A model generated the notes under the pieces. That model saw only the letters and a program-made list of their open reading frames with translations. It did not search any database and was not told where the DNA came from. Positions 5,256 through 37,097 of a stretch of 64,000 nucleotides of DNA are shown piece by piece; positions within the stretch are counted from its first letter, which is position 1; each line of letters starts with the position of its first letter. Position numbers and translations under genes: made by a program. Source of the stretch: Escherichia coli (lineage in GTDB: Bacteria > Pseudomonadota > Gammaproteobacteria > Enterobacterales > Enterobacteriaceae); NCBI RefSeq assembly GCF_046105845.1, contig NZ_CP151004.1; one strand, written 5' to 3'.

Positions 5256-5678
5256 GGGGAACCCGTGTAAATCACAAAAGTGGAACCAGTGTAGCGAAAT
5301 AATTTAATCGGAGGCTTTCTCTTTTTTATTTCTTTTGGCAGGTGATTAATTTTTTTTCAGCAATAATTACAAAGTTAAAACATTAGAGAATGAAAAATAC
5401 CCAGCATAATCCCCTGAATGGTAGTGAATTATTCCGCTCTTTTTGCCGTTATTTTATGCTGACAACGGCACTTTTTTCTGTTTATCTATCAATAAATTCA
5501 GAATATTATCTGTTCTTAATCGACTGAAAAATAGGGATTTTAATCGCTATTATCACAAAATACTGCGCTAAACCCTTAATCAGACAGGCAAAAACAGTGC
5601 AGTATAAAAAAAGAACAGTCTGATTTGTTAACACATAAAAACAAAGCAACACAACATCACGAATGGGGATTTTTGACT

Positions 5679-6788
5679 ATGAAACGGAATGCGAAACCTA
5701 TCATCGCAGGGATGATTGCACTGGCAATTTCACACACCGCTATGGCTGACGATATTAAAGTCGCCGTTGTCGGCGCGATGTCCGGCCCGATTGCCCAGTG
5801 GGGCGATATGGAATTTAACGGCGCGCGTCAGGCGATTAAAGACATTAATGCCAAAGGGGGAATTAAAGGCGATAAGCTGGTGGGCGTGGAATATGACGAC
5901 GCCTGCGACCCGAAACAAGCCGTTGCGGTCGCCAACAAAATCGTTAACGACGGCATTAAATACGTTATTGGGCACTTGTGTTCCTCCTCTACCCAACCTG
6001 CATCAGATATCTACGAAGACGAAGGTATTCTGATGATCTCGCCGGGTGCGACCAACCCGGAGCTGACCCAACGCGGTTATCAATACATCATGCGTACTGC
6101 CGGGCTGGACTCCTCCCAGGGGCCAACGGCGGCAAAATACATTCTTGAGACGGTGAAGCCCCAGCGCATCGCCATCATTCACGACAAACAACAGTATGGC
6201 GAAGGGCTGGCACGTTCGGTGCAGGACGGGCTGAAAGCGGCTAACGCCAACGTTGTCTTCTTCGACGGTATTACCGCGGGTGAGAAAGATTTCTCCGCGC
6301 TGATCGCCCGCCTGAAAAAAGAAAATATCGACTTCGTTTACTACGGCGGTTACTACCCGGAAATGGGGCAGATGCTGCGCCAGGCCCGTTCTGTCGGCCT
6401 GAAAACCCAATTTATGGGGCCGGAAGGTGTGGGTAATGCGTCGCTGTCGAACATTGCTGGCGATGCTGCCGAAGGCATGTTGGTCACCATGCCAAAACGC
6501 TATGACCAGGACCCGGCAAACAAAGGCATCGTTGATGCGCTGAAAGCAGACAAGAAAGATCCATCCGGGCCATATGTCTGGATCACCTACGCGGCGGTGC
6601 AATCTCTGGCAACTGCCCTTGAGCGTACCGGCAGCGATGAGCCGCTGGCGCTGGTGAAAGATTTAAAAGCTAACGGTGCAAATACCGTGATTGGGCCGCT
6701 GAACTGGGATGAAAAAGGCGATCTTAAGGGATTTGATTTTGGTGTCTTCCAGTGGCACGCCGACGGTTCATCCACGGCAGCCAAGTGA
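5679..6788 (+). CDS. livK: Leucine-specific periplasmic binding protein LivK
   Basis: 369 aa from the internal ATG ([23 protein letters not shown] signal peptide). First gene of livKHMGF. Confidence 0.95.
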
Positions 6789-18238: not shown

Positions 18239-18242
18239 TATC

Positions 18243-18273
18243 TTAAGCCCTCTCCCGATAGGCGAGGGCTTAA
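18243..18273. terminator. Hairpin between convergent ggt and yhhY (probable bidirectional terminator)
   Basis: aagccctc ... gagggctt inverted repeat within a 60-bp convergent intergenic gap. Confidence 0.5.
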
Positions 18274-18298
18274 ATGACAAACTTAGATTGCAAATTCT

Positions 18299-33324: not shown

Positions 33325-35790
<2,466 letters not shown>

Positions 35791-35807
35791 GTTCGCAAAG
35801 TGGTAAC

Positions 35808-35856
35808 TGCCGTGTGTTCTCTTAAAGCTATCGTTAATGGGCACACGGCATTTTTA
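35808..35856 (+). terminator. Terminator-like hairpin downstream of glgP
   Basis: tgccgtgtg ... cacacggca 9-bp stem followed by TTTTTAT. The loop is long (25 nt). Confidence 0.55.
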
Positions 35857-36272
35857 TATCAGATAAACGATATGTCATGACAATTTACAGACAGCATCGA
35901 TATATAATTCATATTTATTAATTTTTAATAATGATTCTCATCTGAGTATGTATCATACAATAAGCATTATAAATAACCAATAAATTATTTATTATATTTA
36001 TATATTGCCCCACTCTTCAGTTATCCTGTCTAAAATAAATCTCTTTGTTTTCAAATGACTGTATTTTTATATAAAGTCAATCATTGCGAGCATGGATTCT
36101 TTTAGTTATATTACCAAGCAGCTCATATAATATTTTCAAGCCATTCTATCTCTTATTTTTTCTGTGGTTAACTACACCAGCTTTATTCATTTAAATAATT
36201 TGACTTATTAAAGCTGAATGTAAAAATAATCGCCAATATTGCTTGGATTTTTTAACAAAAGGAAAGGTATAA

Positions 36273-36977
36273 ATGAAATTCAATCTATCTAATTTATCAG
36301 CAGTTTTACTCGCATCAGGTATGCTGATGTCAACTGCGGTAACCGCTGCGCCAGGCGATGCATCACAATTTGGTGGTGCGGATACAGACTGGAGCACCGT
36401 TGATTATCCAAAACTCACCGATATGGATAACAACACCGATGCGATGGGCGGAAACATCCGCTTTACTGGTCGTGTGGTTAAAGCGACGTGTAAGGTTGCT
36501 ACAGAATCGAAACAGATTGAAGTGGTACTGCCAGTCGTACCTTCTAACGCTTTCACGGGCATTGATACCGAAGCAACGGGCGCCAGTAACCAGACTGACT
36601 TCAACATTAAACTGACTGATTGTAGCAATACGGACAGTCAAAACATTGAATTTCGTTTTACTGGCGTAGCAGACGGTGCCAACCAGACGCTTGCCAATGA
36701 AGTGGAAGGAGCTACTGATGCTGATGGTACTGGCGAAGCGGGAGCTACAGGTGTAGGGATTCGTATTTATTCTAAAAACACGACAACTGATGGCCTGATT
36801 AAACTGAACACACAAACTCCCCAGGGGAGTAGTTCTTCAGCAGCCTACGTGATTCCTGGCGATGCTGCCACTCATGATTTTACTGCGGCATTTACCGCGG
36901 GCTATGCTCAGAACGGTAGTACCGTTGCACCAGGTCTGGTGAAATCGACGGCAAGTTTCGTCGTGCTGTACGAATAA
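36273..36977 (+). CDS. Fimbrial major subunit candidate (type-1/FimA-like pilin family, atypically long)
   Basis: 234 aa with signal peptide. Conserved pilin Cys pair (ATCKV ... LTDCSN). C-terminal beta-strand ASFVVLYE typical of chaperone-usher subunits. Strong SD AAGGAAAGG. First gene of the fimbrial island. Confidence 0.85.
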   Translation: MKFNLSNLSAVLLASGMLMSTAVTAAPGDASQFGGADTDWSTVDYPKLTDMDNNTDAMGGNIRFTGRVVKATCKVATESKQIEVVLPVVPSNAFTGIDTEATGASNQTDFNIKLTDCSNTDSQNIEFRFTGVADGANQTLANEVEGATDADGTGEAGATGVGIRIYSKNTTTDGLIKLNTQTPQGSSSSAAYVIPGDAATHDFTAAFTAGYAQNGSTVAPGLVKSTASFVVLYE

Positions 36978-36989
36978 TTACAGCAAGAT

Positions 36990-37023
36990 AATTTCAGGTT
37001 ACAGTTACTTGTAACCTGAAATT
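36990..37023 (+). terminator. Perfect 14-bp stem-loop after the major subunit gene (probable intra-operon attenuator)
   Basis: aatttcaggttaca-gttact-tgtaacctgaaatt, 12 nt after the stop codon. No strong U-tract follows, so partial termination or a stability element is more likely than a full terminator. Confidence 0.6.
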
Positions 37024-37097
37024 AATATTACATGTTTATTTGTAATAAATAGACATGCATCAGTAATTACAATTAATTTCATCTACAAGGATGCAGT

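What the first reader, a model, noticed from the sequence alone, without database searches (positions are those of the whole stretch)
35860..36272. About 410-bp AT-rich leader with no GATC sites and no invertible-switch signature: likely H-NS-silenced cryptic promoter
The region upstream of the first fimbrial gene is extremely AT-rich with long A/T tracts, typical of H-NS-bound horizontally acquired promoters. Reading it by eye I find no GATC (Dam) sites, unlike pap-type phase-variable operons. No FimB/FimE-type recombinase gene is nearby, unlike the fim switch. The control logic of this operon is therefore not evident from sequence.
Basis: partly seen in the sequence, partly recalled or inferred. 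Interest (0 to 1): 0.4.

Follow-up and report, generated by a model that had tools for sequence, protein, structure and literature searches.

The report
AT-rich leader of Auf fimbrial operon
The flagged stretch is the AT-rich control region in front of a divergent copy of the known E. coli Auf fimbrial operon; it most likely works as an ordinary H-NS-coated, weakly expressed promoter region with no methylation or DNA-inversion switch.

Summary
Window 35860-36272 is 25% G+C, the most AT-rich 413 bp in the 64 kb. It has no GATC, and the window holds no recombinase gene.

Two caveats apply. Only about one GATC is expected by chance. A perfect 10-bp inverted repeat does exist (35982-35991 / 36192-36201), but it is chance-level, AT-only and not conserved, and none of 5,426 complete E. 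coli genomes carries the inverted form.

The operon is aufABCDEFG, the known Auf fimbriae at the glgP/glpD site. This is a divergent allele, 64-85% protein identity to the CFT073-lineage strain clone D i14. It is found in 228 genomes; about 558 carry the B2-type allele.

The 482-bp intergenic region contains:
- the glgP terminator;
- a 54-bp block conserved between alleles, with an invariant TATAAT;
- a conserved Shine-Dalgarno region.

Published CFT073 ChIP-seq lists every B2-type auf gene I could read (seven of eight tags) as H-NS- and StpA-bound; glgP and glpD are not listed. TosR overexpression induces auf there.

H-NS silencing of this allele is therefore a well-founded inference, but it has not been shown directly. 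The finding is ordinary and of low interest.

The parts
35808..35858 (+). Intrinsic terminator of glgP (end of the glg operon): hairpin GCCGUGUGUUCU...GGGCACACGGC followed by AUUUUUAU. It already lies inside the island.
   Evidence: RNA fold -20.5 kcal/mol, z = -4.06. The B2 allele has a different sequence but the same hairpin (-26.1 kcal/mol, z = -5.35). Homology with auf-less genomes ends at window 35794.
35860..36272 (+). The flagged AT-rich leader, which is the regulatory region of aufA. It has no GATC and no coding capacity beyond ORFs of 36 aa or fewer, apart from a 68-aa reverse-strand ORF (36191..36397) that overlaps the aufA start and that I take to be spurious.
   Evidence: 25.4% G+C; lowest in the window; ORF list; no Rfam family.
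35897..35906 (+). TCGATATATA, a 9/10 match to the proV high-affinity H-NS nucleation site TCGATATATT.
   Evidence: Motif table in PMC2094087. PWM score ranks 11th in the 64 kb, and 14 hits above the 99.5th percentile fall in the 482-bp intergenic region. Invariant in 10 window-type leaders; not conserved in the B2 allele.
35982..35991 (.). Left arm of the only perfect inverted repeat of 9 bp or more (AAATTATTTA). Judged to be chance.
36192..36201 (.). Right arm of the same inverted repeat (TAAATAATTT). Interrupted by T-to-G at 36200 in 6 of 10 window-type leaders.
36082..36135 (+). Best-conserved upstream block between the two auf alleles, ATTGCG....TGGATT.TTTTAG.TA.ATTAC.AAGCAGC..ATATAATATT. 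It holds candidate promoter P1 (-35 TTGCGA 36084-36089, 17-bp spacer, -10 TATATT 36107-36112). It also holds P2 (perfect -10 TATAAT 36126-36131, weak -35 TAGTTA 36103-36108).
   Evidence: Alignments. TATAAT is invariant in all leaders aligned. P1 was reported by the promoter scan. No transcription start data, so the promoter assignment is inferred.
36156..36161 (+). Poly-T tract. It is T6 here and T7 or T8 in other window-type genomes, and it is the only indel polymorphism in the leader.
   Evidence: T6 in 3, T7 in 5 and T8 in 2 of 10 leaders. T8 occurs on two different haplotypes.
36200..36227 (+). Candidate promoter P3: -35 TTGACT, 16-bp spacer, extended -10 TGtAAAAAT. It overlaps the conserved block ACTTATTAA.GC.GAATGTAAAAA.
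   Evidence: Promoter scan. The -35 is GTGACT in 6 of 10 window-type leaders and ATAACT in B2, where the -10 ends in C. P3 is therefore strong only in this haplotype.
36241..36272 (+). Translation-initiation region GCTTGGATTTTTTAACAAAAGGAAAGGTATAA, with Shine-Dalgarno AGGAAAGG at 36260-36267, 5 nt before the ATG. It is the only part conserved in all alleles, including Citrobacter freundii.
   Evidence: Five-way alignment. Identical to the CFT073 sequence in the published knockout primer.
36273..43464 (+). aufABCDEFG, divergent allele: major subunit (234 aa), chaperone, usher (863 aa), two minor subunits, second chaperone, adhesin (383 aa).
   Evidence: Pfam. Synteny at glgP/glpD with UTI89 and clone D i14. 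Protein identities to clone D i14: AufA 85%, B 78%, C 80%, D 73%, E 68%, F 64%, G 80%. NCBI names a 97% identical protein AufA.

Best explanation
Window 35791-36272 is the 5' regulatory region of a divergent allele of the Auf chaperone-usher fimbrial operon (aufABCDEFG). This is a roughly 7.9-kb, 40% G+C island inserted exactly between glgP and glpD.

The region begins with the glgP terminator. It then runs through about 220 bp of poorly conserved, extremely AT-rich DNA. After that comes a conserved core-promoter block (36082-36135, with an invariant TATAAT at 36126-36131). A 5' untranslated region of roughly 40-140 nt follows, ending in a strongly conserved Shine-Dalgarno region.

The most likely mechanism is this. 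H-NS, together with StpA, nucleates on the AT-rich leader and spreads over the AT-rich operon, keeping basal transcription low. Expression then needs counter-silencing or activation by regulators encoded elsewhere, because the island carries no regulator gene. The only regulator so far linked to auf is the PapB-family protein TosR.

What is shown: the identity of the operon, the anatomy, the conservation pattern, and the absence of Dam and inversion switches. What is inferred: the position of the promoter, H-NS occupancy of this allele, and counter-silencing.
For: Identity:
- The locus has the same insertion site, gene order and gene sizes as auf in UTI89 and clone D i14.
- The glpD..glgP region is named the auf operon in PMC12928451.
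- A 97% identical protein carries the name AufA.

Island status:
- Homology with auf-less genomes stops 4 nt after the glgP stop codon.
- The island is 40.2% G+C against 52.8% for the glg genes.
- auf is present in 786 of 5,426 genomes, as two alleles.

H-NS:
- CFT073 ChIP-seq lists the readable auf-island rows (c4204-c4209, c4212-c4214) as H-NS-bound and StpA-bound. WT H-NS occupancy is aufA 0.24, aufB 0.62, aufC 0.46, aufF 0.69 and aufG 0.68.
- aufA, B, F and G are still flagged bound in the hns stpA double mutant. glgP and glpD are absent from the list.
- The window leader has the same length, collinearity and G+C as the B2 leader.
- It is the most AT-rich stretch of the window.
- It has the densest H-NS-motif hits, including TCGATATATA.
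- The closest paralogue, Elf/Ycb of K-12 (usher 50% identical, leader 27% G+C), belongs to the fimbriae described as cryptic and H-NS-repressed (PMC3559732).

Low basal but inducible expression in the B2 allele:
- aufA rises by log2 5.2 on TosR overexpression and is poorly expressed otherwise.

No switch.
Against: There are no ChIP, reporter or hns-mutant data for this allele. I also found no published hns-mutant expression data for auf in any strain, so what is documented for the B2 allele is binding, not silencing.

The leader is only about 65% identical to the B2 leader, and blastn aligns only the proximal 200 bp. The TCGATATATA site is not conserved in B2.

The high density of H-NS-motif hits is largely a restatement of AT-richness.

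Promoter-like matches in the region are no more frequent than in shuffles (5 found against 5.7 +/- 2.6). No transcription start is known, so P1, P2 and P3 cannot be ranked.

The putative TosR motif has no match within 3 mismatches in the window. Whether this strain has tosR is unknown.
Confidence: 0.65

Rival explanations
1. The leader is a conventional, activator-dependent promoter region in which H-NS binding is incidental. The blocks conserved between alleles (36082-36135 and 36203-36227) would be operators for a specific trans-acting regulator, for example a PapB-family protein such as TosR or another fimbrial cross-talk regulator. That regulator, rather than relief of silencing, would set expression.
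For: Two discrete blocks are conserved between alleles that are otherwise only about 65% identical across the leader. TosR overexpression induces auf by log2 2.6-6.6 in CFT073. The island encodes no regulator.
Against: It is unknown whether TosR acts directly. The published TosR site lies at -360 in CFT073, in the non-conserved part, and has no counterpart in the window. Scans for IHF, Lrp, CRP, SlyA, RcsB, Fis and OmpR consensus sites gave no specific site conserved in both alleles. PapB-family proteins are themselves thought to work by antagonising H-NS and Lrp, so this overlaps with the main explanation.
Confidence: 0.2
2. Expression is switched by slipped-strand changes in the poly-T tract at 36156-36161. 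These would alter the spacing between upstream elements and the ATG-proximal promoter, or alter pairing of the U-tract with the Shine-Dalgarno region.
For: The tract is the only indel polymorphism among 10 window-type leaders (T6, T7, T8), and T8 occurs on two haplotypes. In the minimum-free-energy fold the U-tract pairs with the purine-rich SD region.
Against: T6-T8 is short for a contingency locus. Closely related haplotypes share the same length. The tract does not lie in the spacer of any credible promoter. It is absent from the B2 allele. The fold is not better than shuffles (z = -1.29) and is not conserved. Some of the differences could be assembly errors.
Confidence: 0.05
3. A fim-like invertible element bounded by the 10-bp inverted repeat 35982-35991 / 36192-36201 flips the roughly 200-bp segment that carries the conserved TATAAT. 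The recombinase would be encoded elsewhere in the genome.
For: The repeat is perfect, 10 bp long and brackets the conserved -10 block. Fim-type recombinases are known to act in trans on distant switches (established knowledge, not tested here).
Against: 32% of shuffles give an equal or longer repeat. The arms are AT-only. They are not conserved in B2 and are interrupted in 6 of 10 window-type leaders. None of 5,426 genomes shows the inverted orientation, and 227 of 228 window-type genomes align in one piece in the native orientation. No recombinase lies in the 64 kb.
Confidence: 0.02
4. A pap-like Dam/Lrp epigenetic phase switch.
For: None beyond the general habit of fimbrial operons.
Against: There is no GATC in 35777-37463, none in any E. 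coli auf leader examined, and none in the L008 allele. No papI- or papB-like ORF lies in the leader.
Confidence: 0.01

Closest known systems
Auf fimbriae of uropathogenic E. coli CFT073/UTI89 (aufABCDEFG, c4207-c4214; Buckles et al. 2004)
   Same: Same insertion site (glgP/glpD). Same seven-gene order and sizes. The leader is collinear and of the same length and composition (482 vs 493 bp, 27-28% G+C, no GATC). The Shine-Dalgarno region is near-identical, and a core block with an invariant TATAAT is conserved.
   Different: Proteins are only 64-85% identical, and the leader is about 65% identical, with the distal 280 bp not alignable by blastn. The three hypothetical genes downstream of aufG in B2 strains are reduced to a remnant here. 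The putative TosR site of CFT073 is absent. Wurpel et al. 2013 described Auf as common to phylogroup B2. This allele is a separate lineage, found in 228 of 5,426 genomes.
Elf/Ycb fimbriae of E. coli K-12 (elfADCG-ycbUVF), one of the cryptic H-NS-repressed chaperone-usher operons
   Same: Closest paralogue: usher 50% identical over 833 aa. Wurpel et al. call Auf and Ycb closely related and mutually exclusive. Its leader is equally AT-rich (355 bp, 27% G+C).
   Different: Different locus (ssuE/pyrD) and different gene order. The major subunit is only 31% identical over part of its length. There is no meaningful leader sequence similarity. The elf leader has one GATC, next to its start codon.
proU/bgl-type H-NS silencing by nucleation at high-affinity sites and spreading over AT-rich DNA (Lang et al. 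2007)
   Same: A near-consensus nucleation motif is embedded among many weaker AT-rich matches, which is the arrangement that paper proposes for silenced genes.
   Different: No binding or expression data for this DNA. The motif is not conserved in the B2 allele.
fim switch (fimS with FimB/FimE) and the pap Dam/Lrp switch
   Same: These are also control regions of chaperone-usher fimbrial operons.
   Different: The defining elements were tested and are absent: functional inverted repeats plus a recombinase, or paired GATC sites plus PapI/PapB.

Membership tests
Auf fimbrial operon | Located between glgP and glpD | tested here: met
   glgP ends at 35790 and glpD lies on the reverse strand from about 43970. 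Same as UTI89 and clone D i14 and as region GR24 in PMC12928451.
Auf fimbrial operon | Seven genes in the order major subunit, chaperone, usher, two minor subunits, second chaperone, adhesin | tested here: met
   Pfam domains of the seven ORFs. The order is identical to the B2 operon.
Auf fimbrial operon | Orthology of the proteins to CFT073-lineage Auf proteins | tested here: met
   64-85% identity over full length. A 97% identical protein is named AufA by NCBI. This is a divergent allele, not the B2 sequence.
H-NS/StpA xenogeneic silencing target | AT-rich, horizontally acquired DNA | tested here: met
   Leader 25-28% G+C and island 40%, against 51% for the window. The island edge lies 4 nt after the glgP stop codon, and auf is present in 14.5% of genomes.
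H-NS/StpA xenogeneic silencing target | High-affinity H-NS motif(s) among weaker AT-rich sites | tested here: met
   TCGATATATA at 35897 (9/10 match to the proV site) and 14 high-scoring PWM hits in 482 bp. This is weak evidence, because it follows from composition.
H-NS/StpA xenogeneic silencing target | H-NS occupancy in vivo | not testable with these tools
   Shown only for the B2 allele in CFT073 (PMC9765446 Data set S1E). It is inferred for this allele.
H-NS/StpA xenogeneic silencing target | Derepression in hns or hns stpA mutants | not testable with these tools
   No such data for auf were found in the papers searched.
pap-type Dam/Lrp phase-variation switch | Two GATC sites, about 100 bp apart, within Lrp sites upstream of the promoter | tested here: not met
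   No GATC in 35777-37463 and none in any E. coli auf leader examined.
pap-type Dam/Lrp phase-variation switch | papI- and papB-like regulator genes next to the promoter | tested here: not met
   The intergenic region holds only ORFs of 36 aa or fewer, apart from a 68-aa reverse-strand ORF overlapping the aufA start. The upstream neighbour is glgP, transcribed in the same direction.
fim-type invertible promoter element | Conserved inverted repeats flanking the promoter | tested here: not met
   There is one 10-bp AT-only repeat. It is at chance level (32% of shuffles) and is not conserved.
fim-type invertible promoter element | Both orientations observable among genomes | tested here: not met
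   The inverted-form query is matched at full length in 0 of 5,426 genomes.
fim-type invertible promoter element | Adjacent tyrosine recombinase gene(s) | tested here: not met
   None in the syntenic annotation covering the whole window. Recombinases acting in trans from elsewhere cannot be excluded from 64 kb.
Slipped-strand (homopolymer) phase variation | A long tract in a promoter spacer or coding region whose length varies within clones | tested here: inconclusive
   The T6-T8 tract varies between lineages, but it is short, lies outside any credible spacer, and is stable among near-identical haplotypes.

The most novel reading that the evidence does not exclude
auf is a fimbrial operon without a regulator of its own. 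Its two blocks conserved between alleles (36082-36135 and 36203-36227) would be docking sites for regulators encoded on other islands, such as PapB-family proteins like TosR. Whether the fimbriae are made would then depend on which other adhesin islands the strain carries. The polymorphic T6-T8 tract between the two blocks might tune their helical phasing.
Probability: 0.15. Interest if true: 0.4.

Novelty: new member of a known kind. Interest (0 to 1): 0.15.

Why it matters
It matters only modestly. Auf is a UPEC-associated fimbria whose regulation is almost unstudied; TosR was called its first known regulator in 2018.

Recognising a second, divergent auf allele gives a free phylogenetic footprint. 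It narrows the functional part of a 480-bp leader to about 54 bp plus about 25 bp plus the ribosome-binding region, and it rules out the two classical fimbrial switches. That could guide reporter and footprinting experiments.

It does not change what is known about H-NS silencing or fimbrial control.

Tried and rejected
- A scan of one genome per species for AufA relatives found nothing: 107 pattern matches, none confirmed. Alleles from other taxa were reached instead through a protein search and contig look-ups. Beyond the Shine-Dalgarno region their leaders were too divergent to align reliably.
- Rfam at a permissive threshold gave only noise, so there is no known riboswitch, leader or sRNA.
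- The published putative TosR motif has no match within 3 mismatches anywhere in the window.
- Consensus scans for IHF, Lrp, CRP, SlyA, RcsB, Fis and OmpR gave no specific site conserved in both alleles. The only shared hits were degenerate Fis-like matches over the TATAAT and an OmpR-like match with 4 mismatches over the SD region.
- Folding of the putative 5' UTR was not better than shuffles and not conserved.
- The sigma-70 scan found no more promoter-like sites than in shuffles, so promoter candidates rest on conservation, not on score.
- The original Auf paper (Buckles 2004, PMC427398) is not held, so any promoter mapping in it could not be checked.
- Two literature searches using 'auf' were swamped by German text.
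- No leader similarity to the paralogous elfA leader.
- I did not identify the one high-identity genome whose leader match covers less than 80% of the query.

Full report
**1. What is in the sequence**

glgP (815 aa) ends at 35790 and the first fimbrial gene starts at 36273. The flagged 413 bp (35860-36272) are 25.4% G+C, and the whole 482-bp intergenic region is 27.8%. The lowest-G+C 413-bp stretch of the 64 kb (24.2%) starts at 35896. The next-lowest region is 31.7%, against a mean of 51%. A/T-only runs reach 28 nt.

There is no GATC between 35776 and 37464, the longest GATC-free gap in the window. But the composition of the 413 bp predicts only 0.9-1.0 site, so the absence carries little weight on its own.

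The first 68 bp after glgP form a stable hairpin followed by a U-run (-20.5 kcal/mol, z = -4.1). The other allele preserves this hairpin with a different sequence.

**2. What the operon is**

Seven ORFs (36273-43464) encode, in order: a 234-aa major subunit, a chaperone, an 863-aa usher, two minor subunits, a second chaperone and a 383-aa adhesin.

The same arrangement sits at the same glgP/glpD site in UTI89 and in the CFT073-lineage strain clone D i14. A 2026 comparative paper names the glpD..glgP region the auf operon. NCBI names a 97% identical protein AufA. This is therefore aufABCDEFG, the Auf fimbriae first described in CFT073.

It is a divergent allele. Protein identities to clone D i14 are:

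| Protein | Identity |
|---|---|
| AufA | 85% |
| AufB | 78% |
| AufC | 80% |
| AufD | 73% |
| AufE | 68% |
| AufF | 64% |
| AufG | 80% |

By contrast, glgP is 99.4% identical at protein level to UTI89.

Among 5,426 complete E. coli genomes, 228 carry this allele and about 558 carry the B2-type allele. Genomes without auf stop aligning 4 nt after the glgP stop codon. The entire leader, terminator included, therefore belongs to the island, which is 40.2% G+C against 52.8% for the glg genes.

Further alleles exist:
- in Citrobacter freundii (AufA 77% identical, in a different genomic context);
- on a short metagenomic contig, again after glgP (AufA 71% identical).

**3. The two classical switches are absent**

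*Dam/Lrp.* There is no GATC in any of the ten E. coli leaders examined, of both alleles, nor in the third glgP-linked allele. No papI- or papB-like ORF is present.

*Inversion.* The only perfect inverted repeat of 9 bp or more with arms 50-600 bp apart is AAATTATTTA / TAAATAATTT (35982-35991 / 36192-36201). The evidence against it being functional is:
- 32% of dinucleotide shuffles do as well;
- it is not conserved in the B2 allele;
- it is interrupted by T-to-G at 36200 in 6 of 10 window-type leaders;
- a query with that segment inverted is matched at full length in none of 5,426 genomes, while 227 of 228 window-type genomes align in a single piece in the native orientation.

The window is collinear with an annotated genome that has no recombinase across the region. 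The first 3.6 kb are ftsYEX-rpoH-livJ.

**4. Anatomy from comparing alleles**

The two E. coli leaders are collinear (482 vs 493 bp) but only about 65% identical. blastn aligns only the proximal 200 bp, at 74%. The conserved parts are:
- the terminator hairpin;
- a 54-bp block at 36082-36135, ATTGCG....TGGATT.TTTTAG.TA.ATTAC.AAGCAGC..ATATAATATT;
- ACTTATTAA.GC.GAATGTAAAAA (36203-36227);
- GCTTGGATTTTTTAACAAAAGGAAAGGTATAA, directly before the ATG.

Only the last of these is kept in the C. freundii and metagenomic alleles.

Three promoter candidates result:

| Candidate | -35 | Spacer | -10 | Conservation |
|---|---|---|---|---|
| P1 | TTGCGA 36084-36089 | 17 bp | TATATT 36107-36112 | Kept as TTGCGG / TACATT in B2 |
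| P2 | TAGTTA 36103-36108 (weak) | 17 bp | TATAAT 36126-36131 (perfect) | -10 invariant in all leaders aligned |
| P3 | TTGACT from 36200 | 16 bp | TGtAAAAAT to 36227 | Good in this haplotype, degraded in most others and in B2 |

Promoter-like matches are no commoner here than in shuffled sequence, and no transcription start is available. The promoter position is therefore inferred, not shown.

No Rfam family matches. No significant or conserved 5' UTR fold was found. No conserved specific transcription-factor consensus was found.

**5. Evidence on H-NS**

Published ChIP-seq in CFT073 (PMC9765446, Data set S1, sheet 1E) lists c4204-c4209 and c4212-c4214 among 798 H-NS-bound genes. These are the rows I could read; they cover the auf operon and three downstream genes. 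H-NS occupancy in wild type is:

| Gene | Tag | Occupancy |
|---|---|---|
| aufA | c4214 | 0.24 |
| aufB | c4213 | 0.62 |
| aufC | c4212 | 0.46 |
| aufF | c4208 | 0.69 |
| aufG | c4207 | 0.68 |

All are also flagged StpA-bound. The flanking glgP and glpD do not appear in the file. aufA, B, F and G are among the minority still flagged bound in the hns stpA double mutant. The authors attribute that behaviour to the highest-affinity DNA binding the minor paralogue Hfp.

For the window allele the evidence is indirect:
- It has the same composition and layout as the B2 leader.
- It has the highest density of H-NS-motif matches in the window: 14 hits above the 99.5th percentile in 482 bp.
- It has one near-consensus site, TCGATATATA at 35897. 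This matches 9 of 10 positions of the proV high-affinity site TCGATATATT in Lang et al. 2007. The site is invariant in ten window-type leaders but absent from the B2 allele.

The closest paralogue is Elf/Ycb of K-12: usher 50% identical, leader 27% G+C. It belongs to the chaperone-usher operons described as cryptic and H-NS-repressed.

**6. Evidence on expression (B2 allele only)**

- TosR overexpression raises auf transcripts by log2 2.6-6.6, and aufA by 5.2 in qPCR. The authors call TosR the first regulator linked to auf and cannot say whether it acts directly.
- Their putative TosR site lies 360 bp upstream of the CFT073 aufA ATG. That is in the non-conserved part of the leader, and it has no counterpart in the window.
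- auf transcripts were reported in infected mice.
- auf was the only fimbrial system down-regulated by human serum.

'Cryptic' is therefore too strong. 'Poorly expressed and H-NS-bound' is what the data show.

**7. Verdict**

The exclusions are right. H-NS/StpA coating is experimentally shown for the orthologous B2 allele and is a sound inference here. Silencing of this allele, and the position of its promoter, remain untested.

This is an ordinary example of a well-known kind, an AT-rich, H-NS-targeted leader of a horizontally acquired fimbrial operon. It belongs to a known operon, in a less-studied allele. Its small practical value is the footprint obtained by comparing alleles.

Noticed in passing
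window 36156-36161: A poly-T tract is the only indel polymorphism among ten window-type auf leaders (T6 in 3, T7 in 5, T8 in 2). T8 occurs on two different haplotypes. In the B2 allele other T-tracts vary instead (T8/T9 further downstream, and T6/T8 next to the SD in SCU-485).
   Followed up: partly
window 36989-37024 (aufA-aufB intergenic region, 36978-37097): A perfect 16-bp-stem hairpin lies immediately after the aufA stop codon (whole region -40.5 kcal/mol, z = -7.0). The hairpin is conserved in UTI89; a second hairpin at 37031-37057 is found in the window only. It resembles the stem-loops that follow major-subunit genes in other fimbrial operons and set the subunit-to-assembly-gene mRNA ratio.
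   Followed up: partly
window 43465-43970: B2 strains carry three hypothetical genes (c4204-c4206, 606-768 bp) between aufG and glpD. Here only a 174-bp remnant with 77% identity remains (43630-43803), inside a 94-aa ORF that a near-identical genome annotates as a frameshifted pseudogene.
   Followed up: partly
L002 17238-18358; L012 806-1405; L014 504-523: auf genes are often damaged in other genomes: aufG is frameshifted in UTI89, aufA is frameshifted in SCU-485, and aufA is truncated in O139:H1 W13-16. This fits an operon under weak selection in many lineages.
   Followed up: no
window 36273-36455 (AufA residues 1-61): The Pfam fimbrial domain covers only residues 62-233 of AufA. After the signal peptide there is an acidic extension of about 35 residues (PGDASQFGGADTDWSTVDYPKLTDMDNNTDAMGGN), almost invariant between the two alleles. 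That is unusual for a major pilin.
   Followed up: no
window 18239-18295 and around 4744: Compared with strain Ecol_316, the window lacks the tssD(yhhZ)-yrhA-yrhB segment and an IS1397 copy near livJ. The best core-gene identity to any complete genome is about 99.1%, so the source strain is not in that collection.
   Followed up: no
window 5268-5680: This is the second most AT-rich stretch of the window (31.7% G+C), with a high density of H-NS-motif hits. It lies in the liv/panM region.
   Followed up: no
E. coli genome search: One of the 228 genomes with a high-identity window-type leader matches over less than 80% of it. That could be an insertion or deletion in the leader. It was not identified.
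   Followed up: no
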